Positions 1 through 56,400 of a stretch of 64,000 nt of DNA are shown in pieces (the first letter of the stretch is position 1; the number at the start of each line of letters is the position of its first letter). The notes under the pieces are model-generated. The model saw nothing but the letters and a program-made list of their open reading frames with translations. It was not told the origin of the DNA and made no database searches. Source of the stretch: Babesia bigemina (taxonomy: Eukaryota); the NCBI RefSeq assembly GCF_000981445.1, contig NC_027217.1, positions 1-64,000 on the forward strand, in the 5' to 3' direction. The position numbers and the translations under genes were made by a program.

Positions 1-596
1 TATCCACTCCACATCGCCCCTTTACCCACTCCACATCGCCTTATTATCCACTCTACATCGCTCCCTAACCCACTCTACATCGCCCCTTAACCCACCTTAC
101 ATCGCCCCTTTACCCACTCCACATCGCCCCTTTACCCACTCTACATCGCTCCCTTATCCACCCTACATCGCTCCTTAACCCACTCTACATCGCTCCTCTA
201 TCCACTCTACATCGCTCCCTAACCCACTCTACATCGCTCCTGAATCCACTCCACATCGCTCCCTAACCCACTCTACATCGCCCCTTTACCCACTCTACAT
301 CGCTCCCTAACCCACTCTACATCGCCCCTCTATCCACTCTACATCGCCCCTTTATCAACTCCACATCGCTCCCTAACCCACTCTACATCGCTCCCTAACC
401 CACTCTACATCGCTCCCTAACCCACTCTACATCGCCCCTTATCCACTCCACATCGCCCCTTTGACCACTCTACATCGCCCCTTAACCCACTCTACATCGC
501 TCCCTAACCCACTCTACATCGCTCCCTAACCCACTCTACATCGCCCCTTTACCCACTCTACATCGCTCCTTTATCCACTCTACATCGCTCCTTTAC
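1..596. repeat. 21-22 bp tandem array (consensus about ACCCACTCTACATCGCYCCTTT / CCCTAACCC variants), runs off the window start
   Basis: Directly visible tandem units; the same array precedes every + strand ves-like gene. Confidence 0.97.
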
Positions 597-630
597 TTCC
601 TCCAAGCCGAAAAAAAGAAGCTTTCTTGCC
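579..630 (+). pseudogene. 5' fragment of ves-like gene 1, separated from its body by the retrotransposon (STSLLYFLQAEKKKLSC)
   Basis: Removing 631-4972 joins this segment in frame to PFKYSDKETTCQ of the 4963-10890 ORF. Confidence 0.8.
620..630 (+). repeat. Left target-site duplication GCTTTCTTGCC
   Basis: Identical 11-mer at 4962-4972 on the other side of the RT ORF. Confidence 0.9.
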
Positions 631-3600
631 TTGTTAAATTAAATTGTTAAATTAAGTTATCTCATCTTATAGTGTGCTATGTGGCTACGTGCCTAGGGCC
701 GGTTTTCGTGTTTGCGGGGCTAACGCCTCACGCTGAAACCGGTTGCGGGATCCACGCCGGTCCATTGCCGGACGTCACTGGTGCCATCCATGCGGGCATC
801 CATCCAGTTTGGGCTTGAGGGTCTTCTACGGAATCGTAGTCTTCTTTCGGCTTCATATCCCTCATCACTATTTTATGTGTTTCTTGGATCACTACCCTTT
901 GTATGTGGGCTTCCATGCGATCCGATATGCCCAGGTCCCGTCTATACTTGCTGTGTTCTTTCGTCACTATTCCCTCCCACGTCATAACGTAGGGGATAAC
1001 CCTGATCTTGGTGTGCTGGTTAAACTGTCGCGCCTTGAGGTCCTCAATAAGGTCTTCATACTTCTGCTTCTTGAACTTCTCCGTATCCACTAGGTTGTCT
1101 TGATTGGTGATTCCTATCTCCACGATGGTTATGGTGTTCCTCCGCCGATCCGCCAGGATGATGTCTGGCCTGTTGTATTCCTTAGTCTTCTGAGTCTTGA
1201 CCGTCTTGTCGTACGCGATCCATCCGTATTTTCCATGTACTTCACTCTCGATCTTGTGGGCGTCTATCTTCTCCTTGGGTAGTCCTATTTGCCTCCCGAG
1301 TACTGAGTGGACCCGTTTTGCTACCTCGTTGTGCCTCTTCGTATATTCTAGGTGTAGTAGTTTCTGGCACTTCGTCGCGAGGTGATCCACGTTCTTGCCG
1401 TTGTTGCATCTTGTGCATTTCTTGGACGAAGACATCCATTGCAGATTCCTATCCTGGACTTCCGCTACGTTCGCTTCTTCTTCCGGAGTGAGTATTCCAC
1501 ACGTCAGGTACAAGGACGACGCCTCAATGTCCAGCTTGGGGTCCTCACGCTTGGCATACAGAACCTTATGAGTTGATTTTACGTGCATTCTGTTGTACAG
1601 CCATTTGTTTTGGGCCACCCTGAGGTCCCTGAGGCTCTTGTCCGTAGTGTCCTCCATTCCGAATTCCATTCCATATCTTCCTTCCAGGTGCATCTTGATG
1701 TGAGATATGTGCGCGTATGTGTCGCGAAAATGCTGCATGATCGCAGCTCTCCTGGTTGACGTCACCTCGTCTGCTGAAAGCGTCAACCACAGTCGTAGCA
1801 GCATGGCTTCCGCTCTAAATACCATGCTGTGGAGCCCTCTCCCCATCTCTTTCCGGGGGAGGTAGAGCCTCTGTGTGTTCGCCCACTTCTTGTGTCCGTG
1901 CTTCGCGTTAATTATTCTCCGTACTGCCAGGTCGATCTTGTCGAAATGCGTGATGTCCATAGGGATCACGCCGATGTAGTAGTTGATGACGCTGAGGGCG
2001 TACTGGTTGATGGCCATCGAGAGGTTTTTCCCCGACAGCTTTGACGCAGCCAGTAGCTCCGTTCTCCTGCATATCTCCTGTAGTATTATGTCGAACATTC
2101 CGTCGCTTGTCAGTGAGTTTGAAGTCTCTGTGACTCCCAAGTACTTGTACGTTTCCGGGCCTTCCATCTGCTTGGCGATGCTGGCGCACGCCTCCGTGTT
2201 GGTTGCCGACTTGTCGCGGTTGATCCTGAGTCCTATGTCGTTGAAGAACTTCTCCACTTCTCGGCCCATTCCTCTCATCGTACTTTCCTCGTGGGCGAAG
2301 AACTTGAGGTCGTCAATATAGAGAAAGTGGTTTGTGGCGAATATCCTGCCGCCGGTCACGCTTAACTCCACCTTGGGGAAGATGCGAGTCAGGTGCCTGC
2401 TCAGCGGGTCCAAGCACAGCACGAAGAGAAGGGGCGATAGGCTGTCGCCTTGGAGAATGCCCCTCTCCACTTTCTTGTGCATGATTGTGTTCTTGTTCCA
2501 CCGTATCTCTATATTCCACCTCTTGATCGTCTGCTTGATGAAGTTTGATAACCACCCTGGTAGGTTAAGGTTGTCGATAACCCTTGCCAGGTACGCGTGG
2601 TCGATTGAGTCGTACGCCTTCATGACGTCGACCCACGTTGCAAGTAACTTCCCCTTGTGCTTCTCGTTGAGCGCGATGTTCGCTAACGCGTGCTCCTTTG
2701 CACCCTGTACGTTGCTCCTCGTGCCCATCTGGTTCTCGGACCGTAGTCCCCTGCCATCGACTTCTCGCTTAAGCGTCTCCGTGGCACAACGGGTAGTTAG
2801 CTTGTATAGGTTGGACATGCAAGTGATCGGCCTGTACTGTGCGGCGGACTTTGGTTTCTTGTTCTTCGGTAGTAGGTACGTGATCCCACAGTAGAACCAG
2901 TCGTCCTGCACTTTGCCTTGCTGGCATGCCTCCTCTACTAGCCTGTAAATGACTCTGTGAAGGGACGTGAGCCATTTAATGTAGTAGTTGTAGATCCCAT
3001 CCGCACCGGGCGACTTCCAGTCTCGCAATTTCTTGACGATCGTGACGAATTCCTCGTATGTGGGAAAGCCTGCCTTGTTCTCTGCCGGTGGTCTTTCGAC
3101 CAGATATCCTTCACCGTTGTGCGGTGCGTTTGGCTTCACCCACATTTGCGCCCAGTACTCTATCATCATCCCCTCGTTTATCGCCGACTCGTCCGCGTCC
3201 TGCTTGTTCTCCAGTGTCCTGTAGAAGTGTCCCGTGTAGAGCTCGAACATGCGGTTGTCGTTGTACAACTCCTTCTTGAACTTGGCGTTCTTGAGTTTGT
3301 CCTGCTCCTTTTGGAGCTCCTCTTGAGTCCTGCTGATCACGTATGACAGTTCCTGCGGCTTGTCCGCGATCATGTTGTACTTGTCCATTTGGCGATAAAC
3401 GCGTTTCCTATCCTCCTTCTCCAGGGGGACCTTCTGCTTGTATTTCAGAAGTAATGCTCCTATCTCCTCCAGCTCCTTGATCCTCCTCTCAGCTGCCTCC
3501 TTCTTTCCCGAGGACGACGATGGTTTTGCGCTGTACTTGTCGTAGCAGTCCTGTGCCGTCTGATACAAGACGGCTAGCATCCCCATGTCAGTGACTGGGT

Positions 3601-4961
3601 TGTGCTTCACGTAGTTGTGGACCACTAGATCCAGCGACCTTATCGCCGTGAAGTCGAGGGAGTCCATGGTGTGTCTTTTGTTCTTTACTGTCCTAATCAC
3701 ACCAGGCTCCCTCAACCTCTGTGCCATGATCCGGTCGAAATCCTCCTGCAGGGCGTTGTATGAGTCGACGTCGTGCAGCGATGCTATTTCTCCAACGTCC
3801 GTCGGTTGGCTCCGCGCTGCTTTGGCGACTACCTGTCTTGCCATCTGCTCCACCTCCTTGTGGGTCTTGTGGAATTCGAAATGCTCGTTGGCATATTCCG
3901 CGAGGACTTTCCATCCTCCTCGTGGCATCCTCTGATACTTCGTCACTACTGCCTTGTAGACGTCCGGTACCCAATGACACCATGGTCCATCGATCTGACG
4001 CATGACACAGTGCAGGAACTGTAACTTGGCATTCAGCCTAGCGTAGTTCGGCGGCATTTGTGGCGTGTTCCCGGCCCGTTCAGCCTGCGGGGCGTGCCCT
4101 TCGGGTGCCCTCGGCAACGCAGCCGTCTCAGTGAGCGCCACCTCACTGGCGGTGCCCGGTGCTATACTGTTGTTTGATTCTCTCACAGGCCCGACTTGCT
4201 CAGGTTCCTCTTCGTCCACGTCCATAAAGTCATCCGACGATATGGAATACACGGTCGGAGAGCGGCAGCCACCGTTTCCGACAACCTCCCCTGCCGGTGG
4301 CTGCAGGGTAGACAGTGTCTGCACACACACGGGTGCGCGTTCCGAGGAACTCGGCCCGGCGTTGCAAACCACGACAGGCGGCGTTTGAGCCGTGTTTCCT
4401 GTCTTTTTGGCCTTCCGGTTGTTACCCTTTTGGCCCTGGGGACCGCCGTTCCGCGCTTTGTTTCCAGCGCCCTTCACAGCCGGAGTGGTTCCGGGCTGGT
4501 GTCGTTTCCGGCTTGCCTGCGGGATTGGCCGGCTTTCGCCGCCACGGCCGGCCCCCTTCGAATTTGTGGGTTTACCTTTAGGGCCCTGAACACCGCTTTG
4601 TACCGGTTTTCTGGATTCATGCCGCCTTTCGGGTTGCCGACACTCTCGGCGCCCCACGGTGGCAAGCGGAGCATCGATGTCCATCCCATCGGGGACGTCC
4701 ACGTCAATAACCATGAGGTCTCCGTCCTCATCGATTTGACTGCTCAGCTGCACTTCTTGTGAGCTCTCCATTGGTACCTTGTTCGTCTATCCAGCGCGCC
4801 TGTGTGGCCGCCTTTCGCCTCGCGATGTTGCCGCTTTAATTCCACACTTTTGGCCTTCAATACACCCCCCAGTGACATCGGAAAAATTTCCTTTCTGTGA
4901 TAAACCCGAGAAAACACGTTTCTCAAAGTTTCCCCCAAAATCACAGAAGATTCCAACTCCC
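631..4961 (-). mobile_element. Full-length non-LTR retrotransposon of the restriction-like endonuclease (R4/NeSL/R2-related) group, about 4.33 kb
   Basis: Single intact RT-RLE ORF, 190 nt 5' UTR, 97 nt 3' UTR ending in a short AT-rich tandem repeat, flanked by an 11-bp TSD, visibly more GC-rich than the adjacent ves sequence. Confidence 0.93.
728..4771 (-). CDS. Retrotransposon protein: reverse transcriptase, CCHC zinc knuckle and PD-(D/E)xK endonuclease (1347 aa)
   Basis: WKSPGADGI, YRPITCMSNLYK, DVMKAYDSIDH, GILQGDSLSPLLF, YIDD, YKYLG, RLYLPRKEMGRGL, CTRC-x7-H-x4-C, RHNEV, RPDII...VEIGI...KKQKY; true ATG at 4771. Confidence 0.96.
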   Translation of the reverse strand: MESSQEVQLSSQIDEDGDLMVIDVDVPDGMDIDAPLATVGRRECRQPERRHESRKPVQSGVQGPKGKPTNSKGAGRGGESRPIPQASRKRHQPGTTPAVKGAGNKARNGGPQGQKGNNRKAKKTGNTAQTPPVVVCNAGPSSSERAPVCVQTLSTLQPPAGEVVGNGGCRSPTVYSISSDDFMDVDEEEPEQVGPVRESNNSIAPGTASEVALTETAALPRAPEGHAPQAERAGNTPQMPPNYARLNAKLQFLHCVMRQIDGPWCHWVPDVYKAVVTKYQRMPRGGWKVLAEYANEHFEFHKTHKEVEQMARQVVAKAARSQPTDVGEIASLHDVDSYNALQEDFDRIMAQRLREPGVIRTVKNKRHTMDSLDFTAIRSLDLVVHNYVKHNPVTDMGMLAVLYQTAQDCYDKYSAKPSSSSGKKEAAERRIKELEEIGALLLKYKQKVPLEKEDRKRVYRQMDKYNMIADKPQELSYVISRTQEELQKEQDKLKNAKFKKELYNDNRMFELYTGHFYRTLENKQDADESAINEGMMIEYWAQMWVKPNAPHNGEGYLVERPPAENKAGFPTYEEFVTIVKKLRDWKSPGADGIYNYYIKWLTSLHRVIYRLVEEACQQGKVQDDWFYCGITYLLPKNKKPKSAAQYRPITCMSNLYKLTTRCATETLKREVDGRGLRSENQMGTRSNVQGAKEHALANIALNEKHKGKLLATWVDVMKAYDSIDHAYLARVIDNLNLPGWLSNFIKQTIKRWNIEIRWNKNTIMHKKVERGILQGDSLSPLLFVLCLDPLSRHLTRIFPKVELSVTGGRIFATNHFLYIDDLKFFAHEESTMRGMGREVEKFFNDIGLRINRDKSATNTEACASIAKQMEGPETYKYLGVTETSNSLTSDGMFDIILQEICRRTELLAASKLSGKNLSMAINQYALSVINYYIGVIPMDITHFDKIDLAVRRIINAKHGHKKWANTQRLYLPRKEMGRGLHSMVFRAEAMLLRLWLTLSADEVTSTRRAAIMQHFRDTYAHISHIKMHLEGRYGMEFGMEDTTDKSLRDLRVAQNKWLYNRMHVKSTHKVLYAKREDPKLDIEASSLYLTCGILTPEEEANVAEVQDRNLQWMSSSKKCTRCNNGKNVDHLATKCQKLLHLEYTKRHNEVAKRVHSVLGRQIGLPKEKIDAHKIESEVHGKYGWIAYDKTVKTQKTKEYNRPDIILADRRRNTITIVEIGITNQDNLVDTEKFKKQKYEDLIEDLKARQFNQHTKIRVIPYVMTWEGIVTKEHSKYRRDLGISDRMEAHIQRVVIQETHKIVMRDMKPKEDYDSVEDPQAQTGWMPAWMAPVTSGNGPAWIPQPVSA

Positions 4962-4972
4962 GCTTTCTTGCC
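4962..4972 (+). repeat. Right target-site duplication GCTTTCTTGCC
   Basis: Identical to 620-630. Confidence 0.9.
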
Positions 4973-36172: not shown

Positions 36173-36400
36173 ATGGTCACGGCAGCGATGACATGGCTAC
36201 GGCAGCGATGTCATGGTCACGGCAGCGATGACATGGTCACGGCAGCGATGATATGGTTACGGCAGCGATGACATGGTCACGGCAGCGATGACATGGTTAC
36301 GGCAGCGATGACACGGTCACTGCAGCGATGGCATGGTTACGGCAGCGATGACACGGTCACGGCAGCGATGACACGGTCACGGCAGCGATGACATGGTCAC
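36173..36400. repeat. 20-bp tandem array
   Basis: Visible tandem units. Confidence 0.96.
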
Positions 36401-36413
36401 AAGTAGTGATTAT

Positions 36414-36540
36414 TATCCACTCTACATCGCTCCTTAACCCACTCTACATCGCCCCTTTATCCACTCTACATCGCCCCTTACCCACTCTACATCGCCCCTT
36501 TATCCACTCTACATCGCTCCCTAATCCACTCTACATCCCT
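36414..36540. repeat. 22-bp tandem array (short)
   Basis: Visible tandem units. Confidence 0.95.
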
Positions 36541-36641
36541 TGAATCACCTCGCCATAATACGGCTATGACCTTTTTAAACCATAACAATAACTTGTGGCT
36601 TGTCACCCTTCACTTCCCCTCTTCCACCTCTTGCCACTGCC

Positions 36642-39600
36642 ATGTCCCATCATGTTCACCCTAACTCCAAATCTCTCGAATTACTTCGTCTTATTAACGC
36701 TATGACCTTTATAAATCCTTATAATAACTTGTTGATGGTGACCATTCTCTTACTGAGGATGCCAGGAAAAAGCAGTTGAATGGTATCAATGATAGCCGTA
36801 TTCAACTTGGTGAATTGGCTGGGCAGCTTGGCGGATTTGTTGGTCAAAGTGAGAGTGTTAAGAAAGCCGTTGTGAATGCTATTATCGCTAAAATTAACAG
36901 TAATGAAGAGCTTAAACATCTTTACTCTTCTCTTGTTACTAACCTTTCTGAGTCTGTCAAGTCTGCTGGCCAGGCTGATGACACCGGAAAAATTAGTGAG
37001 CTAAAAAGTAAAATTACCACTGAAATTAAGCTTACTGAAGAGACAATGAAGAAGCTTAAACCTTCTGTAATTAACTCTCCTTCTTCCCCCTCTCCCTCTG
37101 CTGAGTCAGACAAATTGCACTCCAAGTTGCAGGCTTTGGAGAAAGTGGAGAAGCTTTGTGAAAATTATGAGAAACTTAAAACTTCTGATAATAACCCAAA
37201 AAATCTCTTAGATAATTTATGTGACGGCCTCGAAACCTTCCTCGGCTTCAACTCTGCTTCCAAAGGCTACGATGGCACTGGGATAGTGTACTCCGACTTG
37301 GATAGGCTGTGTGACGGGGTGATGGGATTTTTGAGTGGAGTGCTTGGTGCGGTGAAAAACGAAAATGAAGTGACAACTTATGATAATTACATAACTTCAA
37401 CTAATATTAATAGTGTAGTTAGCAAAATACATGACTGTATTGGTAAGGGGCCGGAGGCCTTCAAGGAGGCAATGGCCGACGTGATTTTTTGGCTGCGTAA
37501 GTATAATTTTGTTTTGCAGGAAAAAACAAGCGAGTTAACTGCTGAAATAAGTAAGTTTATGAATTCCAAAATTGGTTATGACTATATTAAACGTGTTTCA
37601 GGTAGCTCGACGAAGAGCCTTCGAGAACAGCTGTCTGACTGGACCAATGTGGTCGGCGAGATTCAACGAGACCTAACAAAAATTGAAACCGAAAATATTA
37701 ATGCGTTAGATAAGACACTTAGAAATAATATCATGCATAAATTCGAGCCTGTTAAAACGTCGGTTCAATTGCTGCTTGAGTCCGCCCAAAATGATGCATT
37801 GGTGAAGCAGGCGACCAAGGTAGATGCTGAATTGGAGAAGCAGGAAAAAGAAATTAAGAAAGAGATACTTAGGCAATCTATATCAATTACAGACACCTTT
37901 AAAGAGGGATTTCAAGAAGTATTTAGGAATATACGACATCTTAGTGATGTGGAAAAAACGCAATTTGGGAGCATTAAAAATAGATTGGAGGAGGCGCAGA
38001 AGTTTTTGAATACTAAATTTGACTATGAATACAAAAGTCATGTTATTGGTAAGTTTGAAGATATAAAAACGGTAGTTAAAAACGTACATGCCATGTTATC
38101 TGTACAAAAACAAGGACTTGAGAAGTTAGTTGCATACGCTTGGCAGCACTTTGAACAACTTAAAATTAATACCATTAAAAAAGAGCCGGGCAACGGGGAG
38201 GACAATAGCATAGGAAAGAAATGGGAAGAGCTACAAACGCAGATTATATCAATAGTTGGTGATATTAATGGGACTGGTGCAGGGCACAACAAAAACCATC
38301 CAAGCCATGATGGTCTTGAAGGTATCCAAACTAGAACGAAGGAGTGGGCTGAAGGATTTACGCATTTTGAGAATGTAGTGGAGAAATGGGTAGCAGAGAT
38401 ATTAAATGATGGTAAGGGGATGGTAATCGATAAGGTTAATAAATATTATGGTAATATAACAGAAAATGATAAGACTGCGATTTCACGCGTATTTAAGGAA
38501 CAGCTTAATGCAAAGGTCATAAAAACAAATGGACCGCTCACAGTGCGAGTCATGGAAGGTCGCGACAGCATTCAGCAAAATATTAACGCTGTCCAATCCT
38601 CTTGCGATAAGTTTGCCAAAGTGCTTCATGAGAAGATCAAGGCGCACGACACGCTAGTCGACATTGCAAAAAGCATTTTGGAGGCGATTAACTTACAAGT
38701 GAAAACAACCACTAAAACAAATGACGCACGCGATATATCGGATGCTATTCGTTCCACTCTGGAACAACTCGTGGGAATGTCTAGGAGTGCATCCCTCGAG
38801 ATCAAATCTGTAACTGCCGAAAATAGCACTTATAGCCTTGGAAAACGCGTCGATGAGGCGTTAAAAGAGATTGATAATATCCGAAAGGAATTCGTAGCTG
38901 GTGGAGAAGGGCGTAACGGCAAATTTATAACCGCGGCATTGATAACGGTGAATGACAAAATACGTCTACTTGAACCTATATTGAAAAATGAAGCTACAGG
39001 CTCTTTGCGTGCTACTGCGAACGCGGTTGAAACTATTGTCACGGAGCTTCAAGAATTTACGAAAACGAAAAATACAAATGGCAGCATTGAACAAAAAAAG
39101 CAAGCGGTCGTCGACAAAATGGCAGATTTGAAATCCCAGATTCAATCGCATATCAGTGTCATTCTTAAGGCTGTCGTTGATGCAGATGCGTATTTGGAAG
39201 CAGTCATCAATGACATCCAAGATGCATTAACTGAAGCTGATATAAAGGCCAACCAAGCTGTCAACCAACTGAAGGAAGAACTGACAGAGAAGGTGGATAA
39301 GGCATTTCACATCATAAACATTGAAGTAAAATCCCTATTTGCCAAAGAAAGAACCGCCCACCTCTCCGCCCTCAAGACCCTCGTCACCAGGCAGCTCAAG
39401 ATCATCACCTGCACCGTCAACAAAAACCTCAACACCGGCCTGAAAGGCTTCCTCAAGACGCTGAGCGGGGATTATGTCGACATTTATTTGGCTGGTTATA
39501 AGGAGCGTCCGAAGCATCTCCCTCCTAAAGCTCAGAAGACCAATCCGCTCGACGAAGTGAAGACCGCTCTTGAAAGAGGTGAACATGGAGACAAAGTTGC

Positions 39601-42226
39601 AACGCTGTCCTCCACATTCAAGCACTATTCTGAACACATCTTCGATTACCTCGATAAGGACCTCAAACATAATTTCGCCTCCCAGCCTCAGGTCATCGGC
39701 CAGTATGACCAGACTGTCTCCACCATCCGCTCGAACCTCACCGATCTCCTCACCCACATCAGCGCTCACAAACACTTCGACCACCAGGTTCCCGAGATGC
39801 TCGAAACGCTCAAGACATCCCTCACCTCCTTCAAGTCCTCGCACTTCGGCAACGCATCCTACCCCGTGCTCGACGCCTTTCCCCGAAGCCTGGAGCAGTT
39901 CGTCGGGGAGCTGGAGAGGATGTACGTTAGCAGGTATGATGGGCATAAGCAGAAGGTTAATATGGGTAAATTGGTTATTAGTGATGGTGATAAAGGTGAA
40001 AAATTAACGGATGACGGCAGAAATTTGTCGAAGGTATTTTTGACGATTTTGGTGACTTTGAAAGCCGGGTTAGACGAGTTAAAGCAGAATGCTCCAAACG
40101 CCTGGAGAGGAAGACAAATTTATTTGCAAGACAGTAACGAAGATGAAAACTCATTTGGTCAATTTTTGAACAAGTGCGGTTACAAAGTTTCCAAGTCGCA
40201 TGATTCCCATGAAGGTCACCTGAGGAATAAGGAGCAGTGCAAAGGTCAATATATCCACGACGGTCTTCTTGTAGGCGATAAGCAGCATATTTATCACTCA
40301 GATAAAAACGGTAAACGTGCACTCGAGATACTTTTCGACTATTTGGAGACATACAACGACTTATGCCATCTCTCAACATTAACCTCCAAGAGACAGCCAT
40401 GCTCCGTGTACGAGATGCTCGCTTGGCTCTCGGGACTAACGCACAATCCGGTACACCAAAGTAAGCTAAGCGTAGCCATCATGAACGTTTTGGAAGAGCT
40501 ATACAAAAGAGGTAGAGAAGATGAGGGAGAACATGGCGACGTATTAGCAGTAGAACGACAAGCAGACGGAGGGGAGTTCAAAGTGTCATTGGTTGATGCA
40601 CGCTCCGTATCCCTGGAAGCCTACCCACGTGACGTATCATATGATGAACTGTGGGCAGCCGTGACGCATATATGTTCGACTTCATATGACGTCCTTTGCG
40701 CAATTGCCGGTCACGGCGACGAATTCACGACATACGCTGTGGACTATTCCAACAATCACATGAAATTCAATTACCCCCAAAACGGGGAAGATTGTCTCGA
40801 TATGCTCCTTGACATCCTTCGTCGAATGTTGCCAACATTACAATATTTGTATAGTCAGTGCAGGCTCAGCAATGGGCTCAACGGTTGGCAAGCGTGCAAG
40901 TACGGCAAGGATATCATGACAGCCAAATGGCCATGCAAAGTTCATCCATCCGACGAACCAGATAATAAATCAAACTGCCAAGCAAAGTGTAAACCAACGT
41001 GCCAAGCAAAGTGCGAAGTAACGTGCCAAGTAGATTGCCAACCAACATCGCCATTGATGAGTTACCTGAACGACTGCTTGCCGGGTCATTTACCTCATCA
41101 ACTTACTAAAATTGGATGTAAGTACGAGTGTTCCAATTGCTCAACTTCTAAAAAGGGTAAGCCTTGCCTGACGCCTCTTGGATTCAAAGGTTTCTCCGGA
41201 TCCACACGTATGGGTAAGGACATATGTGAAGTGCTGACCAAATTCATCAACATCAAGCATCTTACGGGTCTATTCACGCTGATTCCCAAGCCGCCTTCCA
41301 CGTTGCCAGAGCACTTCGGTTTTACCTTGGCGCTGGCGATTGGTATTAATGCAACATCTAGAACTAATAATTACGATCCTCATGCGTTTAGAGGCGTGTT
41401 TGCCGCATCCATCTACGAGCAAACTATTAACCTCTGTACCGACCAATCCACATTGACCAATGCGTTAACCGACGCATATGGGTCGCCGTCTCCAACACAT
41501 GGCGTATGCGAACATGCCCACGTTAGAAATCTCACGGCGTCCGATAGCTGCAAAGGGAAGACCAATTTGGAACTCGAATGCGCTCCGTACCTTGCCAATT
41601 TATCTGTCGACTGTTATCGATACCTCGGTAAAAAGCATTCCAACCTCTACTTGTCATGGGCTGTCTACCTCCCTTGGAGCTTTTGGACGAATCTTAAAAA
41701 TCTATATGACGCGTTTTGCAACATTTACTGTCAAGACTGGGGCTGTCGTGGTTGCTTAAGAGGCGACAAGTGCAAACGTGGAGAACATGGATCAATAAGT
41801 GACGCTTCCAAACAACCTAATTGCCAATGCCACTCCATTGTTGACTGCAGAGGCGTCGCTCCAACTTTGTACAGTTATGGCTTTTCCTTCGGTGACCCAT
41901 CGAAATTGCAGAACGAGCATTATCCAAACACATGTGCCGACTTCCGCAAGCAATTGAAAAATGTATTGAAGTCGGAATACTTCACAAAATTATTTGAAGA
42001 GTGTGACAAATTCTTATTCACCATCAGAGAGCCCTTCATCTGGCTCAACGTCGCCCTCTGGCTCCTCTCCTTCCTCTACCTCCTCCACATCATGGTCATC
42101 CGCCTCGACCTGCTCCACATCAAATCGCATTTGCACTCACCATCATCACATCGCATAGCTGCCCAATCACTACTCGCCGCGGCACGTGTTAACAAACTGG
42201 GCAGGGTGTTTTACCTGCAACCTTAA
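36642..42226 (+). CDS. ves-like gene 5; candidate ATG 36642 (MSHHVHP) is separated from the main frame by a 53-nt interruption
   Basis: Main frame open from 36728 (LVDGDHSLTED...); conserved boxes, TM and tail. Confidence 0.82.
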
Positions 42227-42870: not shown

Positions 42871-43015
42871 ATGGTCACGGCAGCGATGACATGGTCACGG
42901 CAGCGATGAGATGGTTACGGAAGCGATGACATGGTTACGGCAGCGATGACATGGTCACGGCAGCGATGACATCAACACGGCAGCGATGACATGGTCACGG
43001 CAGCGATGACATGGT
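42871..43015. repeat. 20-bp tandem array
   Basis: Visible tandem units. Confidence 0.95.
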
Positions 43016-43033
43016 GAGCTAAGTGGTGATTAT

Positions 43034-43140
43034 TATCCACTCTACATCGCCCTTTAACCCACTCTACATCGCTCCCTAACCCACTCCACATCGCCCCTTT
43101 ACCCACTCTACATCGCCCCTTTATCCACTCCACATCCCTT
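43034..43140. repeat. 22-bp tandem array (short)
   Basis: Visible tandem units. Confidence 0.95.
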
Positions 43141-43240
43141 GAATCACCTCGTCTTATTACCGCTATGACCTCTGTTAACCATAGCAATAACTTGTGCCTT
43201 GTCACCCTTCACTTCCCTTCTTCCACCTCTTGCCACTGCC

Positions 43241-46200
43241 ATGTCCCATCATGTTCACCCTAAGTCCAAATCTCTCGAATTACTTCGTCTTATTAACGCT
43301 ATGACCTCCATAAATCATTATAATAACTTGTTGATGGTGACCATTCTCTTACTGAGGATGCCAGGAAAAAGCAGTTGAATGGTATCAATGATAGCCGTAT
43401 TCAACTTGGTGAATTGGCTGGGCAGCTTGGCGGATTTGTTGGTCAAAGTGAGAGTGTTAAGAAAGCCGTTGTGAATGCTATTATCGCTAAAATTAACAGT
43501 AATGAAGAGCTTAAACATCTTTACTCTTCTCTTGTTACTAACCTTTCTGAGTCTGTCAAGTCTGCTGGCCAGGCTGATGACACCGGAAAAATTAGTGAGC
43601 TAAAAAGTAAAATTACCACTGAAATTAAGCTTACTGAAGAGACAATGAAGAAGCTTAAACCTTCTGTAATTAACTCTCCTTCTTCCCCCTCTCCCTCTGC
43701 TGAGTCAGACAAATTGCACTCCAAGTTGCAGGCTTTGGAGAAAGTGGAGAAGCTTTGTGAAAATTATGAGAAACTTAAAACTTCTGATAATAACCCAAAA
43801 AATCTCTTAGATAATTTATGTGACGGCCTCGAAACCTTCCTCGGCTTCAACTCTGCTTCCAAAGGCTACGATGGCACTGGGATAGTGTACTCCGACTTGG
43901 ATAGGCTGTGTGACGGGGTGATGGGATTTTTGAGTGGAGTGCTTGGTGCGGTGAAAAACGAAAATGAAGTGACAACTTATGATAATTACATAACTTCAAC
44001 TAATATTAATAGTGTAGTTAGCAAAATACATGACTGTATTGGTAAGGGGCCGGAGGCCTTCAAGGAGGCAATGGCCGACGTGATTTTTTGGCTGCGTAAG
44101 TATAATTTTGTTTTGCAGGAAAAAACAAGCGAGTTAACTGCTGAAATAAGTAAGTTTATGAATTCCAAAATTGGTTATGACTATATTAAACGTGTTTCAG
44201 GTAGCTCGACGAAGAGCCTTCGAGAACAGCTGTCTGACTGGACCAATGTGGTCGGCGAGATTCAACGAGACCTAACAAAAATTGAAACCGAAAATATTAA
44301 TGCGTTAGATAAGACACTTAGAAATAATATCATGCATAAATTCGAGCCTGTTAAAACGTCGGTTCAATTGCTGCTTGAGTCCGCCCAAAATGATGCATTG
44401 GTGAAGCAGGCGACCAAGGTAGATGCTGAATTGGAGAAGCAGGAAAAAGAAATTAAGAAAGAGATACTTAGGCAATCTATATCAATTACAGACACCTTTA
44501 AAGAGGGATTTCAAGAAGTATTTAGGAATATACGACATCTTAGTGATGTGGAAAAAACGCAATTTGGGAGCATTAAAAATAGATTGGAGGAGGCGCAGAA
44601 GTTTTTGAATACTAAATTTGACTATGAATACAAAAGTCATGTTATTGGTAAGTTTGAAGATATAAAAACGGTAGTTAAAAACGTACATGCCATGTTATCT
44701 GTACAAAAACAAGGACTTGAGAAGTTAGTTGCATACGCTTGGCAGCACTTTGAACAACTTAAAATTAATACCATTAAAAAAGAGCCGGGCAACGGGGAGG
44801 ACAATAGCATAGGAAAGAAATGGGAAGAGCTACAAACGCAGATTATATCAATAGTTGGTGATATTAATGGGACTGGTGCAGGGCACAACAAAAACCATCC
44901 AAGCCATGATGGTCTTGAAGGTATCCAAACTAGAACGAAGGAGTGGGCTGAAGGATTTACGCATTTTGAGAATGTAGTGGAGAAATGGGTAGCAGAGATA
45001 TTAAATGATGGTAAGGGGATGGTAATCGATAAGGTTAATAAATATTATGGTAATATAACAGAAAATGATAAGACTGCGATTTCACGCGTATTTAAGGAAC
45101 AGCTTAATGCAAAGGTCATAAAAACAAATGGACCGCTCACAGTGCGAGTCATGGAAGGTCGCGACAGCATTCAGCAAAATATTAACGCTGTCCAATCCTC
45201 TTGCGATAAGTTTGCCAAAGTGCTTCATGAGAAGATCAAGGCGCACGACACGCTAGTCGACATTGCAAAAAGCATTTTGGAGGCGATTAACTTACAAGTG
45301 AAAACAACCACTAAAACAAATGACGCACGCGATATATCGGATGCTATTCGTTCCACTCTGGAACAACTCGTGGGAATGTCTAGGAGTGCATCCCTCGAGA
45401 TCAAATCTGTAACTGCCGAAAATAGCACTTATAGCCTTGGAAAACGCGTCGATGAGGCGTTAAAAGAGATTGATAATATCCGAAAGGAATTCGTAGCTGG
45501 TGGAGAAGGGCGTAACGGCAAATTTATAACCGCGGCATTGATAACGGTGAATGACAAAATACGTCTACTTGAACCTATATTGAAAAATGAAGCTACAGGC
45601 TCTTTGCGTGCTACTGCGAACGCGGTTGAAACTATTGTCACGGAGCTTCAAGAATTTACGAAAACGAAAAATACAAATGGCAGCATTGAACAAAAAAAGC
45701 AAGCGGTCGTCGACAAAATGGCAGATTTGAAATCCCAGATTCAATCGCATATCAGTGTCATTCTTAAGGCTGTCGTTGATGCAGATGCGTATTTGGAAGC
45801 AGTCATCAATGACATCCAAGATGCATTAACTGAAGCTGATATAAAGGCCAACCAAGCTGTCAACCAACTGAAGGAAGAACTGACAGAGAAGGTGGATAAG
45901 GCATTTCACATCATAAACATTGAAGTAAAATCCCTATTTGCCAAAGAAAGAACCGCCCACCTCTCCGCCCTCAAGACCCTCGTCACCAGGCAGCTCAAGA
46001 TCATCACCTGCACCGTCAACAAAAACCTCAACACCGGCCTGAAAGGCTTCCTCAAGACGCTGAGCGGGGATTATGTCGACATTTATTTGGCTGGTTATAA
46101 GGAGCGTCCGAAGCATCTCCCTCCTAAAGCTCAGAAGACCAATCCGCTCGACGAAGTGAAGACCGCTCTTGAAAGAGGTGAACATGGAGACAAAGTTGCA

Positions 46201-48825
46201 ACGCTGTCCTCCACATTCAAGCACTATTCTGAACACATCTTCGATTACCTCGATAAGGACCTCAAACATAATTTCGCCTCCCAGCCTCAGGTCATCGGCC
46301 AGTATGACCAGACTGTCTCCACCATCCGCTCGAACCTCACCGATCTCCTCACCCACATCAGCGCTCACAAACACTTCGACCACCAGGTTCCCGAGATGCT
46401 CGAAACGCTCAAGACATCCCTCACCTCCTTCAAGTCCTCGCACTTCGGCAACGCATCCTACCCCGTGCTCGACGCCTTTCCCCGAAGCCTGGAGCAGTTC
46501 GTCGGGGAGCTGGAGAGGATGTACGTTAGCAGGTATGATGGGCATAAGCAGAAGGTTAATATGGGTAAATTGGTTATTAGTGATGGTGATAAAGGTGAAA
46601 AATTAACGGATGACGGCAGAAATTTGTCGAAGGTATTTTTGACGATTTTGGTGACTTTGAAAGCCGGGTTAGACGAGTTAAAGCAGAATGCTCCAAACGC
46701 CTGGAGAGGAAGACAAATTTATTTGCAAGACAGTAACGAAGATGAAAACTCATTTGGTCAATTTTTGAACAAGTGCGGTTACAAAGTTTCCAAGTCGCAT
46801 GATTCCCATGAAGGTCACCTGAGGAATAAGGAGCAGTGCAAAGGTCAATATATCCACGACGGTCTTCTTGTAGGCGATAAGCAGCATATTTATCACTCAG
46901 ATAAAAACGGTAAACGTGCACTCGAGATACTTTTCGACTATTTGGAGACATACAACGACTTATGCCATCTCTCAACATTAACCTCCAAGAGACAGCCATG
47001 CTCCGTGTACGAGATGCTCGCTTGGCTCTCGGGACTAACGCACAATCCGGTACACCAAAGTAAGCTAAGCGTAGCCATCATGAACGTTTTGGAAGAGCTA
47101 TACAAAAGAGGTAGAGAAGATGAGGGAGAACATGGCGACGTATTAGCAGTAGAACGACAAGCAGACGGAGGGGAGTTCAAAGTGTCATTGGTTGATGCAC
47201 GCTCCGTATCCCTGGAAGCCTACCCACGTGACGTATCATATGATGAACTGTGGGCAGCCGTGACGCATATATGTTCGACTTCATATGACGTCCTTTGCGC
47301 AATTGCCGGTCACGGCGACGAATTCACGACATACGCTGTGGACTATTCCAACAATCACATGAAATTCAATTACCCCCAAAACGGGGAAGATTGTCTCGAT
47401 ATGCTCCTTGACATCCTTCGTCGAATGTTGCCAACATTACAATATTTGTATAGTCAGTGCAGGCTCAGCAATGGGCTCAACGGTTGGCAAGCGTGCAAGT
47501 ACGGCAAGGATATCATGACAGCCAAATGGCCATGCAAAGTTCATCCATCCGACGAACCAGATAATAAATCAAACTGCCAAGCAAAGTGTAAACCAACGTG
47601 CCAAGCAAAGTGCGAAGTAACGTGCCAAGTAGATTGCCAACCAACATCGCCATTGATGAGTTACCTGAACGACTGCTTGCCGGGTCATTTACCTCATCAA
47701 CTTACTAAAATTGGATGTAAGTACGAGTGTTCCAATTGCTCAACTTCTAAAAAGGGTAAGCCTTGCCTGACGCCTCTTGGATTCAAAGGTTTCTCCGGAT
47801 CCACACGTATGGGTAAGGACATATGTGAAGTGCTGACCAAATTCATCAACATCAAGCATCTTACGGGTCTATTCACGCTGATTCCCAAGCCGCCTTCCAC
47901 GTTGCCAGAGCACTTCGGTTTTACCTTGGCGCTGGCGATTGGTATTAATGCAACATCTAGAACTAATAATTACGATCCTCATGCGTTTAGAGGCGTGTTT
48001 GCCGCATCCATCTACGAGCAAACTATTAACCTCTGTACCGACCAATCCACATTGACCAATGCGTTAACCGACGCATATGGGTCGCCGTCTCCAACACATG
48101 GCGTATGCGAACATGCCCACGTTAGAAATCTCACGGCGTCCGATAGCTGCAAAGGGAAGACCAATTTGGAACTCGAATGCGCTCCGTACCTTGCCAATTT
48201 ATCTGTCGACTGTTATCGATACCTCGGTAAAAAGCATTCCAACCTCTACTTGTCATGGGCTGTCTACCTCCCTTGGAGCTTTTGGACGAATCTTAAAAAT
48301 CTATATGACGCGTTTTGCAACATTTACTGTCAAGACTGGGGCTGTCGTGGTTGCTTAAGAGGCGACAAGTGCAAACGTGGAGAACATGGATCAATAAGTG
48401 ACGCTTCCAAACAACCTAATTGCCAATGCCACTCCATTGTTGACTGCAGAGGCGTCGCTCCAACTTTGTACAGTTATGGCTTTTCCTTCGGTGACCCATC
48501 GAAATTGCAGAACGAGCATTATCCAAACACATGTGCCGACTTCCGCAAGCAATTGAAAAATGTATTGAAGTCGGAATACTTCACAAAATTATTTGAAGAG
48601 TGTGACAAATTCTTATTCACCATCAGAGAGCCCTTCATCTGGCTCAACGTCGCCCTCTGGCTCCTCTCCTTCCTCTACCTCCTCCACATCATGGTCATCC
48701 GCCTCGACCTGCTCCACATCAAATCGCATTTGCACTCACCATCATCACATCGCATCGCCACGCAATCACTACTCGCCGCTGCACGTGTTAAAGCACTCAA
48801 CAAAGTGCTGTACCTGCAACCTTGA
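43241..48825 (+). CDS. ves-like gene 6, near-identical copy of gene 5 with a different extreme C-terminus
   Basis: ORF translations are identical up to SHRIA, offset 6599 bp. Confidence 0.85.
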
Positions 48826-53437: not shown

Positions 53438-56400
53438 TCACAGCCTATCACACGGTGACTGAGATTGATCTGAATTTAATGAATGATTCGATAGGCCAAG
53501 TTGGTGGCAGTGGCCATGTAACTTGGTGAGGCAATTGAGGTAGGCAGACAATGTCAGCAAGGGGTCACTACCGCCGCAGCTGGGAGTGAGGATGGAGGAA
53601 ATGACACTGCCCTGCTTCGATATCTTAGGCAGATCCCCTTTCCTTAATCCCATCCTGACTCTGCTCTTGTGGCACAGGTTGCACGGGTCGAAGGGGTGAG
53701 TTTTGAAGGTGGAGTCCCAGCCGTCAGTCAGGAACGCCTGGAGGGGGGAGTCAGAGGGGGAAACCGCATTTCCATACTTATGACTCTGCCACCCGCCACT
53801 TAGTTTGTCCCGATTACACTGCGCCTTCAGGAACTGCAACTGGTGGTGGCAGGCGTAGGCGTAGTCACGCAGCTGGCAGAGGAGGCAGGCGGGGTCGGGG
53901 GAGTAACGAAACTGACTGTAAACTGATTCAAAGTCGACGGGAGGCAAGGCTTTGAAGTCATTGTTATGCCTAATCTTGTAGATAACGGTGGCTGAGTAGA
54001 GAGACGCTTCTGTCAGCTTATCGGCGACATGGGAACTGTTCAGGTTGTAAGGATCTCTGGTGACCTCGAGGGCATCTGGCATATCAAAGACATTCTTGTT
54101 AGCATTCTTTAGAAGGCACTCAACATACTCAGTAATCATCCCAATGAATCCATACGTATTCAATCCAACAAACCAGTAAAGCATTTCCCGAACGGTTCTG
54201 GGCGGGGGCAGATGGTCGGTGTCTGGGGAAGGGGAGGCAGGTGGAGGGGGTGTATCAGTTGAAGAAGTGTCGAAGGACCAAGGGTTTTGGCATTCATCTG
54301 TGCTAAATGGGTTAATAACGCGTTCATCTGCCTTCCTTGGAGAGTCACGCGGCATCCCGGGATCTTCATAGCCGTCAAGTCCGATACGTTCCGGCGCAAA
54401 GTCCAGATCAAAATTAGTCTGAAGGACGCCAGAAAAGCCTTTACCCTCTGCAGGTTTTAACTCGTCTTTAAGGATATCGGCCGTGTTGGCATAAGGGTCA
54501 TATAGGTCTATGTCATATGACGAATCCTGTAGTGGACGTTTCGGGACGTCGATTTGGATCTCGAATGGGATTTGATCGTTGCGTGGAGGGGCACTAGAGA
54601 TGTCAAACTGTGAATCATTGAACGCACGTATGCGATCAGCGTCTACTTGTGCAGCTTGCATTAATTCTTTTTGTTTGTCGTTTATGTGTTTCGATTCTTC
54701 TTTTAACGCCTGCATTTTACGTTCGCGTTGTTTATTTTCAGAATCGATTTGCATCTGAGCATTCTGCAGATTTTGAATATTCCGCTCCTGCCGTTTAATT
54801 AACTTATCGTCCTGTACTTCTTGTCCTTCTAGATGGTATCGGTCTCCCGCATTAACCCTTATGTCACTTGGAATCTGTGATGTGTCCACTTTTCCGTTGA
54901 CACCGACAACCGGTTGACCAGATGCACCTGTCATGCTCAACATGATATTATCGTCAAATGTGACAGTGTGTGGTGATTGGGTCAGAGAATTATCACGTCC
55001 AGTAGGCTTCGATGGTGGCGTAAAAGGTGACTTGCGAAAGTTAATTTTGGAATCAGGAATGTTGTGGCCTGTGGATTGCTGTATGGCAGAAGCCGTAAAA
55101 GCACTATCGTGGTCGAGTTGAACTGTCGGGATTTCAATTGACCGACCGGAGATATTCCGAGCTGTGATAGGTGGGACGAGAATATCGACGTTCTGAACAA
55201 TCGGTACTGATGATTTCCGAGATAAGAAAGGCGTTCTCGATGTCTCGTGACTCTGTCTATGTAAATTATCTCTATATTCCCTTACTTGTGTGTTCCAATT
55301 AACTTTCTCTTTCTGCATCTGTTTATAAAGCTCTGCCTGCTTCGCATCCCAGTCCCATTTTTCCATTGTTTGTTTGGCTAAAGAAAGTTTTTTTAATTTA
55401 GCTTCCTTCTCTTCATGTTCGAAATCAGGGACCGCACTGCCTCCAACAGATATCATAGGCAGATCGACAGGCTCAATATCCCCAACTCGCTCCCTGGAAC
55501 TTCTCTCCTGTGGAACATACTGCGGACTCTGGTTAGCAGGGATGCCACTGGGCGGCTGAGAAGAAAACGGGATCTGACCGGAAGGTGAGGGAGCAGGACG
55601 GCTGGGTTGACTTGGAAGGGCGGAGACTGTAGATGTTGGAGAATCACGACTAACGTTTTGCTGCTCTACTTGTTTTTGCTGCCGCAACCGTTTTTGTTGC
55701 AATCTTTTTTTGGCATCTGCATCTCTCACGTTTTCTTCTATGTAATCCACGTTTTGCTGCAGTTGAGTTTTCCAAATTGCTTCCGTAGTATCTTTCAATG
55801 TTTCTTCAACTTTCTCAGCGGCTCTATTCTTCAGTTCGTTTCGTTTTTTAATACGTTCAATGGCTTCTTGTGTTCTTATCTCAGACTGCAATTTATATTC
55901 TGCATATTTCTTGTCCTTTTCAATAAGTTTTTTCTCTTCGGCTTCCATTTTTAACATATGTATTCTATTATCCACGCCTGCCGTGATTTTGTCTTGCAGC
56001 TCTTTATGATACAAATTTTCCATTTCCTTATCATCGGCGTTCGTGGGGTCATCTACTGGACTGCCGGAAATTGGAGAATTCGGCAAGTCATGATACCACC
56101 ATGGCCACCATTGCCACTGTCGGTTTTCTGTAGGTCGAAATCCATCTACATAAGGCGGCGATACAATTGGTTTTTTTTTGAATACTTCCTGTCTTCGGCG
56201 TGCTTCCGTATCCCTTCTGCCTTTATCCAATACCTTTTGTATTCTGTCTACCTCTTCATCATATTTTTTCGCACGCTTACCTTCCCCCTCCCGCTCTATA
56301 TTCCACTTCGCATCTGCCTCCTTTTGTTTCTGGTCGAATTCATTTCTCAGATTAACCTCTTCTTCCATATCCTGTCGTTCCCGTGACTGACGTAACGCTT

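What the first reader, a model, noticed from the sequence alone, without database searches (positions are those of the whole stretch)
620..4972. Intact RLE-type non-LTR retrotransposon integrated in a piroplasm variant-antigen gene
Seen: an uninterrupted 1347-aa RT-CCHC-PD(D/E)xK ORF flanked by an exact 11-bp direct repeat GCTTTCTTGCC (620-630, 4962-4972). Excising it restores a continuous host frame STSLLYFLQAEKKKLSCPFKYSDK. Established: Babesia, Theileria and Plasmodium genomes are generally described as lacking transposable elements. Inference: this is a recent TPRT insertion and possibly a still-active element. The TSD and the restored frame argue against a contaminant chimera.
Basis: partly seen in the sequence, partly recalled or inferred. 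Interest (0 to 1): 0.93.

Follow-up and report, generated by a model that had tools for sequence, protein, structure and literature searches.

The report
Young intact retrotransposon in Babesia bigemina
A complete jumping gene with an unbroken reading frame sits inside an antigen gene of the cattle parasite Babesia bigemina; the family was already listed for this species, but it likely jumped recently, clusters beside antigen genes, and was likely acquired sideways from microsporidian parasites.

Summary
Observation confirmed. Window 631-4961 (minus strand) is a 4331-bp non-LTR retrotransposon with one 1347-aa ORF (RT, CCHC knuckle, PD-(D/E)xK nuclease; fold closest to R2), flanked by an exact 11-bp duplication. 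A contig from another study holds the repeat once amid ves coding sequence, and paralogues run through the site unbroken, so the duplication is real. The host is B. bigemina and the gene is ves1b-like, but this copy lacks its first ~50 codons, so no working gene is shown to be disrupted. Not found in my ten paper searches: (1) several full-length copies differ by 0-2 residues and other junctions have unrelated flanks, indicating recent, non-sequence-specific spread; (2) 5 of 10 chromosome-placed copies adjoin a ves1b gene, against a 1.9% background; (3) piroplasm elements nest among microsporidian ones (AU p about 0.002), suggesting horizontal acquisition. Present activity, targeting versus survival, and the donor are untested.

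The parts
620..630 (+). Target-site duplication, left copy (11 bp), next to the element's 3' end
   Evidence: Exact, not extendable; single copy at an unoccupied site in run X3
4962..4972 (+). Target-site duplication, right copy, next to the element's 5' end
   Evidence: an X3 contig stops matching at 4961 and continues with other sequence
631..4961 (-). Full-length non-LTR retrotransposon, 4331 bp, 53% GC, antisense to the host gene; no long terminal repeats
   Evidence: blastn against the window gives only the self hit
4772..4961 (-). 5' UTR, 190 nt, begins with GGG; no ribozyme detected
   Evidence: no Rfam family at gathering level; fold z -0.35
728..4771 (-). Single ORF, 1347 aa
   Evidence: same 90% cluster as nine named B. 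bigemina proteins
3812..4060 (-). Conserved helical N-terminal domain (aa 238-320, MPRGGW motif) after a 237-aa low-complexity leader; possible DNA-binding role untested; no zinc-finger pattern seen
   Evidence: Alignment A1; model; not covered by the fold matches
2129..2854 (-). Reverse transcriptase core (aa 640-881), catalytic YIDD at aa 818
   Evidence: PF00078 E 2.6e-30
1367..1417 (-). CCHC zinc knuckle (aa 1119-1135)
   Evidence: the column is conserved in most aligned relatives, which mostly have x8 rather than x7 spacing
1058..1168 (-). Core of the restriction-like endonuclease (PD 1202, E 1218, EKxKxxKY 1231)
   Evidence: weak sequence alignment to the R2 nuclease region; structural alignment with R2 runs to the C-terminus
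631..727 (-). 3' UTR, 97 nt, ending in 1.9 copies of a 13-bp A/T-rich unit (631-655), no poly(A); other copies end at 646-672
   Evidence: loose ends
600..630 (+). Left remnant of the interrupted ves1b-like gene
   Evidence: 9 of 10 residues match paralogue P0150
4962..10890 (+). Remainder of the ves1b-like gene (about 1975 open codons)
   Evidence: relative P0153 = CDR97489 is labelled ves1b in PMC5660447 Table S2
4..596 (.). 22-bp satellite (27 copies) standing where the gene's first ~50 codons would be; the same satellite precedes other ves copies in the window

Best explanation
This is a full-length retrotransposon with an unbroken RT-CCHC-nuclease reading frame and an 11-bp target-site duplication inside a ves1b-like gene of Babesia bigemina, likely inserted recently by target-primed reverse transcription and likely descended from an element acquired horizontally from microsporidia. 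Inferred mechanism, by analogy with R2: the protein binds the 3' end of its own RNA, the nuclease nicks one strand, the RT copies the RNA from the nick, and a second nick 11 bp away creates the duplication; early termination gives 5'-truncated copies. It shows no fixed target sequence. Copies pile up in ves1b arrays, most likely because insertions are tolerated there. Shown: anatomy, duplication, unoccupied site, near-identical copies, unrelated flanks, proximity to ves1b, nesting in the tree. Inferred: the chemistry, the recency, the direction of transfer and the cause of the clustering.
For: Anatomy. Model pLDDT 91.8; the top 7 Foldseek hits are all R2 proteins; VIA Z 30.1, rmsd 5.0 over 756 residues to R2Tg, tied within about 1 Z with LINE-1 ORF2p, but the R2 alignment reaches the C-terminal nuclease. 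Unoccupied site and unbroken paralogues. Recency: three other 1347-aa proteins differ by 1, 2 and 2 residues, one listed under three GenBank accessions; the window's own protein is on record on 3 contigs; a fused model is identical at 1331 of 1332 aligned positions. Different sites: 3' junctions at 646, 647, 651, 656, 667, 672 with flanks unlike this target, and internal loose ends at 756, 790, 908, 1311, 2232 as expected of 5' truncation (both tables were cut). Listed X3 differences: 16 synonymous of 33 changed codons against 21.8% expected. ves1b proximity: 5 of 10 loci adjacent against 1.9%; 4 of 9 against 2.2% after dropping one, p 3e-5. Origin: every named eukaryotic hit above about 37% identity is a piroplasm, a microsporidian or an animal-labelled record; piroplasm plus microsporidian elements form a starred clade in all four IQ-TREE runs; a microsporidia-only clade is rejected, AU p 0.0015 and 0.0026; the T. 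equi element is closer to Vairimorpha apis (47.6%) than to this one (39.9%).
Against: No new insertion, transcript or enzyme activity was observed for this copy. Junction-spanning contigs come only from runs X1 and X2, one sample that may be the window's source, so no independent strain shows this insertion. Some near-identical records may be redundant unplaced contigs or segmental duplicates; the window itself holds a 98.7% identical 6-kb ves duplicate. X3 differences include 1 stop, and X4 has a copy with three 1-nt deletions, so many copies are dead; the synonymous test ignores transition bias and uses cut tables. The proximity test uses accession order as gene order, 71 of 81 ves1b labels, gene counts rather than bases, and cannot separate targeting from survival. 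The AU groups were named after trees were seen, under LG+G4, and element trees contain paralogous lineages. Mite- and octopus-labelled rows also sit outside the piroplasm group, so an animal intermediate is possible. Whether T. equi and Babesia elements share one origin is unresolved (76/46, 91/86, not recovered).
Confidence: 0.82

Rival explanations
1. The element is real but no longer jumps; its near-identical copies were spread by segmental duplication and gene conversion among ves arrays.
For: ves1 sequences move between loci routinely (PMC4066756 passages); a 98.7% identical 6-kb duplicate lies in the window; 14 of 25 RT-cluster gene models are on unplaced-contig accessions.
Against: Other junctions have unrelated flanks, including a second 3' junction in run X1; one near-identical copy is annotated in sense fusion with a ves1ba gene while this one is antisense in ves1b; the duplication here has no mismatch.
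Confidence: 0.1
2. The element actively targets ves loci (through chromatin, the satellites or a short nuclease preference) rather than merely surviving there.
For: 8 of 10 loci lie within 5 gene numbers of a ves1b label against 7.3%; a B. caballi model joins the RT to a VESA1_N match; most RLE clades target multicopy sequences (PMC4640811 passages).
Against: Flanks seen at other 3' junctions share no sequence with this target; 2 of 10 loci are 18 and 37 gene numbers from a seen label; a gene-dense genome would give the same pattern by selection alone.
Confidence: 0.3
3. Piroplasms and microsporidia each received the element from arthropod hosts, or both kept it from a distant common ancestor.
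For: Dermatophagoides-labelled proteins and a 17-kb contig that looks animal-like by its neighbouring ORF (my reading) lie outside the joint clade; element exchange between microsporidia and animals is documented (PMC4202319 passages).
Against: No tick-named protein among the 120 + 120 listed hits, though element ORFs are often unannotated; microsporidian elements (Enteropsectra, Amphiamblys) fall outside the clade that holds the piroplasms; 38-48% identity over about 800 columns is hard to square with ancient vertical descent and no other apicomplexan was named.
Confidence: 0.3
4. Assembly chimera with microsporidian or other contaminant DNA.
For: Nearest non-piroplasm relatives are microsporidian; GC is 53% against 44% for the host ORF.
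Against: True duplication with an unoccupied site; contigs span both junctions without mismatch; relatives in four Babesia species and T. equi, the Babesia ones forming a 100/100 clade; 25 gene models in this species.
Confidence: 0.02

Closest known systems
'LINE-like' elements of B. bigemina, B. ovata, B. divergens and T. equi (Rodriguez and Makalowski 2022, PMC9141347)
   Same: Almost certainly the same family: same species set, non-LTR RT; 0.97% of the B. bigemina genome.
   Different: In the parts I read the paper gives no full-length B. bigemina model (its table lists Bdiv_22, Bova_19, Tequ_3), no nuclease type, duplication, age, ves association or microsporidian link; sequence identity to its models could not be checked.
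RT-motif gene clusters of B. caballi (PMC10463595) and B. ovata/B. bigemina (PMC5660447)
   Same: Homologous proteins: 141 models in B. caballi cluster 03; 12 B. ovata and 25 B. bigemina models in module 12.
   Different: Described as expanded gene clusters or repeats; the words 'transpos' and 'retro' do not occur in either main text.
R2 retrotransposons (R2Bm 8gh6, R2Tg 9dou/9nl3)
   Same: Single ORF with RT, zinc knuckle and RLE; best fold match.
   Different: Only 14-17% identity; no N-terminal zinc fingers seen, no rDNA target, no 5' ribozyme detected.
EhLINE1 of Entamoeba histolytica and the R4/Dong/Rex6 group
   Same: RLE-type element in a parasitic protist, dispersed, no fixed target, makes duplications (PMC1635306 passages). 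The RT motifs resemble R4/Dong by my recall only.
   Different: EhLINE/SINE insertions were not found in genes and give a 22-bp duplication in the cited example; this one sits in a gene with 11 bp. No reference sequence was available for a tree.
Non-LTR elements of microsporidia (Vairimorpha, Nosema, Hamiltosporidium, Nucleospora, Pancytospora, Astathelohania, Enteropsectra)
   Same: Nearest named non-piroplasm relatives, 38-42% identical over RT to RLE for those compared, same domain order and MPRGGW domain.
   Different: They lack the long low-complexity leader; knuckle spacing is mostly x8.

Membership tests
RLE-type non-LTR retrotransposons | Single ORF with a central non-LTR reverse transcriptase and intact catalytic aspartates | tested here: met
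RLE-type non-LTR retrotransposons | CCHC knuckle followed by a C-terminal PD-(D/E)xK nuclease | tested here: met
   Motifs, alignment, fold alignment with R2 to the C-terminus
RLE-type non-LTR retrotransposons | No long terminal repeats; target-site duplication; simple-repeat 3' tail; 5'-truncated copies | tested here: met
   truncation inferred from loose ends
RLE-type non-LTR retrotransposons | Target-primed reverse transcription activity | not testable with these tools
   Needs a biochemical or reporter assay
R2 clade | Insertion in 28S rDNA | tested here: not met
   Target is a ves1b-like gene; other flanks are unrelated to each other
R2 clade | N-terminal CCHH zinc finger(s) (recalled) | tested here: not met
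   No conserved C/H pattern in the N-terminal alignment; Pfam finds only RVT_1
R2 clade | HDV-like ribozyme at the 5' end (recalled) | tested here: inconclusive
   No Rfam match, fold z -0.35; no pseudoknot-aware descriptor search was run
NeSL/Utopia clade | One to three N-terminal zinc fingers and a spliced-leader or U2 target (PMC4640811) | tested here: not met
R4 clade (R4, Dong, Rex6, EhLINE1) | RT groups with R4/Dong/EhLINE1 in a tree | not testable with these tools
   No named reference member among the hits; resemblance of motifs is recalled only
Piroplasm LINE-like family of PMC9141347 | Multi-copy non-LTR RT in B. bigemina, B. ovata, B. divergens, T. equi | tested here: met
   Same species among named hits; the paper's model sequences were not in the supplement seen
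BbigVes1b (host gene) | Homology to genes labelled ves1b | tested here: met
   P0153 (E 2e-79) = CDR97489 and CDR94851 are labelled ves1b; 3 more of 6 looked up share module 1. VESA1_N did not match the host ORF itself
BbigVes1b (host gene) | Complete N-terminus with a start codon | tested here: not met
   tblastn with 4 paralogue N-termini finds only 600-629 (E 0.048) near this gene and no convincing match elsewhere in the window; sequence upstream of position 1 is unseen

The most novel reading that the evidence does not exclude
An early piroplasm picked up an RLE retrotransposon from a microsporidian sharing its tick host. The element still jumps in B. bigemina, lands preferentially in ves1b antigen arrays, and provides the reverse transcriptase needed by the old hypothesis that intron-poor ves genes arose by retrocopying, making it an unrecognised engine of antigen-repertoire change.
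Probability: 0.17. Interest if true: 0.85.

Novelty: new member of a known kind. Interest (0 to 1): 0.55.

Why it matters
Most apicomplexans are described as lacking transposable elements (PMC4053351 passage), and the 2022 survey that found LINE-like sequences in piroplasms did not say whether they were intact or where they came from. A full-length, probably young element makes three questions testable. Is retrotransposition ongoing in a piroplasm? Does it shape ves arrays, where a retrotranscription origin for B. bovis ves1-alpha was proposed (PMC4066756), although B. bovis itself now lacks the element according to PMC9141347? Did a fungal-lineage parasite pass a retrotransposon to an alveolate parasite inside an arthropod? 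Insertion polymorphisms would also serve as strain markers. The score is held down because the kind of element is well known and the family was already listed.

Tried and rejected
No whole genome was held, so copies, their duplications and flanks could not be listed directly. No RNA holder was listed; runs X4 and X6 are only guessed to be RNA and were not used as expression evidence. The B. bigemina proteome lists BBBOND_0308820 (element fused to ves1ba; 9 peptides, 4 used), but peptides cannot be assigned to the element part; 3 other locus tags searched were absent. Summed depth is higher over the 3' end in X3 and X5 but is not a copy number. Rfam gave one chance snoRNA match; neither UTR folds better than shuffles. 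ESM Atlas gave only RVT_1 clusters with almost no taxa. The representative search and cluster look-up of ten environmental relatives gave no usable taxon; bacterial MAG labels (Riesia, Simkania, Clostridium) on short contigs were read as misbinned. The metagenome scan gave one close 2.3-kb locus and no Babesia context. A 115-row mixture tree did not finish; FastTree was used instead (6 of 121 rows dropped for short coverage), and later trees used hand-picked subsets of 37, 31, 29 and 22 rows. No separate fold of the N-terminal or nuclease domain was made. Two look-ups of earlier findings returned nothing. A fixed target sequence was considered and rejected on the unrelated flanks; contamination was rejected as above.

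Full report
OBSERVATION. The minus strand carries one ORF from ATG 4771 to stop 728, 1347 aa. Pfam finds RVT_1 at E 2.6e-30 and nothing else. The catalytic YIDD, a C-x2-C-x7-H-x4-C knuckle, RHNEV, PD-x14-E and EKxKxxKY follow in the order of RLE elements. The 11-bp repeat at 620-630 and 4962-4972 is exact and not extendable. It defines a 4331-bp element with a 190-nt 5' UTR and a 97-nt 3' UTR ending in 1.9 copies of a 13-bp unit. There are no terminal repeats and no second copy in the window.

IS THE REPEAT A TRUE DUPLICATION? Alone it is modest: 6 of 500 shuffles gave an equally long shared word. Three other results settle it. A contig of run X3 matches from 4962 onward and is preceded by ves-type coding letters like the left flank, with the 11-mer once; it may be an allele or a paralogue. 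Five B. bigemina paralogues carry EKxKLxCPFKYSD unbroken at residues 28-60 (9 of 120 listed relatives matched the pattern, most gene models start further in). Another X3 contig stops matching exactly at 4961 and continues for 240 other bases, giving the same 5' end at another site. Contigs of X1 and X2 span both junctions with no mismatch, but they are one sample that may be the window's source.

HOST. The protein sits in a 90% cluster whose nine named members are all B. bigemina. The flanking ORF matches B. bigemina and B. ovata proteins, and a close relative is labelled ves1b in PMC5660447 Table S2. Homology on the left begins only at about 600; upstream lies a 22-bp satellite, and the paralogues' first ~50 residues are not found in the window. 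The host copy looks like a 5'-truncated member of a tandem array, so loss of a working antigen is not shown. Sequence before position 1 is unseen.

PROTEIN. An AlphaFold model of aa 238-1320 has pLDDT 91.8. Its top 7 Foldseek matches are R2 proteins; VIA gives Z 30.1, rmsd 5.0 over 756 residues to R2Tg, with LINE-1 within about 1 Z. The first 156 model residues, including a helical domain with a conserved MPRGGW motif, were barely tested. No N-terminal zinc finger pattern is visible and no ribozyme was detected. It works like R2 or EhLINE1 but fails R2 and NeSL/Utopia membership; R4/Dong membership rests on recalled motifs and could not be tested.

AGE AND SPREAD. Three other 1347-aa proteins differ by 1, 2 and 2 residues, one under three accessions; a fused model matches at 1331 of 1332 positions; older copies differ at about 2-3% or are fragments of 79-93% identity. 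Reads from other runs show 3' junctions at 646-672 with flanks unlike this target or each other (the 667 flank recurs in three runs) and internal loose ends consistent with 5' truncation (tables cut). Of 33 codons changed in X3, 16 are synonymous, 16 not and 1 is a stop, against 21.8% synonymous expected (cut tables, mixed copies, transition bias ignored). This fits a recent burst without sequence specificity, alongside decayed copies. Activity today is not shown. In B. ovata a relative (BOVATA_006670, 1006 aa like P0011) has an RPKM of 156 in PMC5660447 Table S1.

PLACEMENT. PMC5660447 Table S2 lists 25 B. bigemina models in the RT cluster, 11 on chromosome-type accessions. Merging two neighbours gives 10 loci. 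Using accession order as gene order (consistent with the locus tags) and 71 of 81 ves1b labels, 5 of 10 adjoin a ves1b/ves1ba gene against 1.9%, and 8 of 10 lie within 5 against 7.3%; after dropping one adjacent locus and inflating the background, p is 3e-5. Gene counts understate the size of ves regions, and survival in dispensable DNA predicts the same pattern, so targeting is only a rival.

ORIGIN. Named relatives are B. ovata (two lineages, 78% and about 51%), B. caballi, B. divergens, T. equi, many microsporidia and a few animal-labelled records; no other apicomplexan is named among the 120 + 120 listed hits. Babesia elements form a 100/100 clade. With T. equi and most microsporidian elements they form a starred clade in four IQ-TREE runs, including the mixture model (100/99, 100/99, 100/97, 98/97), with Enteropsectra, Amphiamblys (where included), octopus- and mite-labelled rows outside. 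A microsporidia-only clade is rejected (AU p 0.0015 and 0.0026; groups named after seeing trees, LG+G4). Piroplasm monophyly is unresolved. Horizontal transfer is likely; microsporidia as direct donor is my best guess (about 0.55), an arthropod intermediate about 0.3.

PRIOR KNOWLEDGE. PMC9141347 (read: parts 1-2 of 5, passages, Discussion, supplement part 1 and searched rows; Tables S5-S6 were not in the archive) reports LINE-like elements in B. bigemina, B. ovata, B. divergens and T. equi and leaves gain/loss scenarios tied. PMC10463595 (passages, supplement rows) notes RT-motif clusters and repeats in B. caballi. PMC5660447 and PMC4066756 (passages, supplement rows) define the ves families; the latter restates the retrotranscription hypothesis for ves1-alpha. 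PMC4202319, PMC7313128, PMC4640811, PMC1635306, PMC11789329 and PMC4053351 were seen as passages only. Ten searches (listings only beyond the papers named) showed no paper describing an intact copy, its duplication, the ves association or the microsporidian link. Subscription journals and Repbase were not searchable, so the family may be curated there.

VERDICT. A real, full-length and probably young RLE retrotransposon; a new, characterised member of a known kind, in a family already listed for this species. Interest 0.55, resting on the intact state, the clustering at ves1b arrays and the probable transfer from microsporidia.

Noticed in passing
window 4962-48825: Six tandem ves1b-like ORFs on the + strand (1590-2004 codons stop to stop). 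The five whose upstream was inspected are preceded by the 22-bp satellite, with 12-bp and 20-bp satellites further up where seen; none of the conserved N-terminal ~50 residues was found in the window, suggesting an archive of 5'-truncated copies.
   Followed up: partly
window 36253-42224 and 42871-48823: Two ves copies 98.7% identical over 5975 bp: a very recent tandem duplication or conversion.
   Followed up: no
window 53441-58753 and 59578-64000 (minus strand): Two further long ORF regions; the second resembles the ves1ba part of the fused model P0130 by eye.
   Followed up: no
window 57213-57253: The 11-mer of the target site occurs twice within a 30-bp tandem repeat, with no insertion.
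   Followed up: yes
window 667-760 in runs X3, X4, X5, X6: Many variant contigs match only the last ~100 bp of the element, some with a shared different tail and high depth (145-158 in X4 and X6); possibly a short non-autonomous derivative or a divergent subfamily.
   Followed up: no
B. caballi, PMC10463595 Table S4: Two RT-coding repeats total about 489 kb and 282 kb (313 and 182 appearances; they may overlap), far more than in B. bigemina.
   Followed up: no
P0537 and P0011 (B. ovata): B. ovata holds two lineages of the family, one 78% identical to this element and one about 51%.
   Followed up: partly
L002 7626-10766: A relative sits in a 17-kb contig whose neighbouring ORF is rich in His/Gln/Ser runs, and groups with Dermatophagoides-labelled proteins; possibly a true mite element.
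   Followed up: partly
P0040, P0279, P0280, P0540, P0618: Close relatives carry bacterial MAG labels (Riesia, Simkania, Paraclostridium, Clostridium) on 1.5-4 kb contigs, probably misbinned eukaryotic DNA.
   Followed up: no
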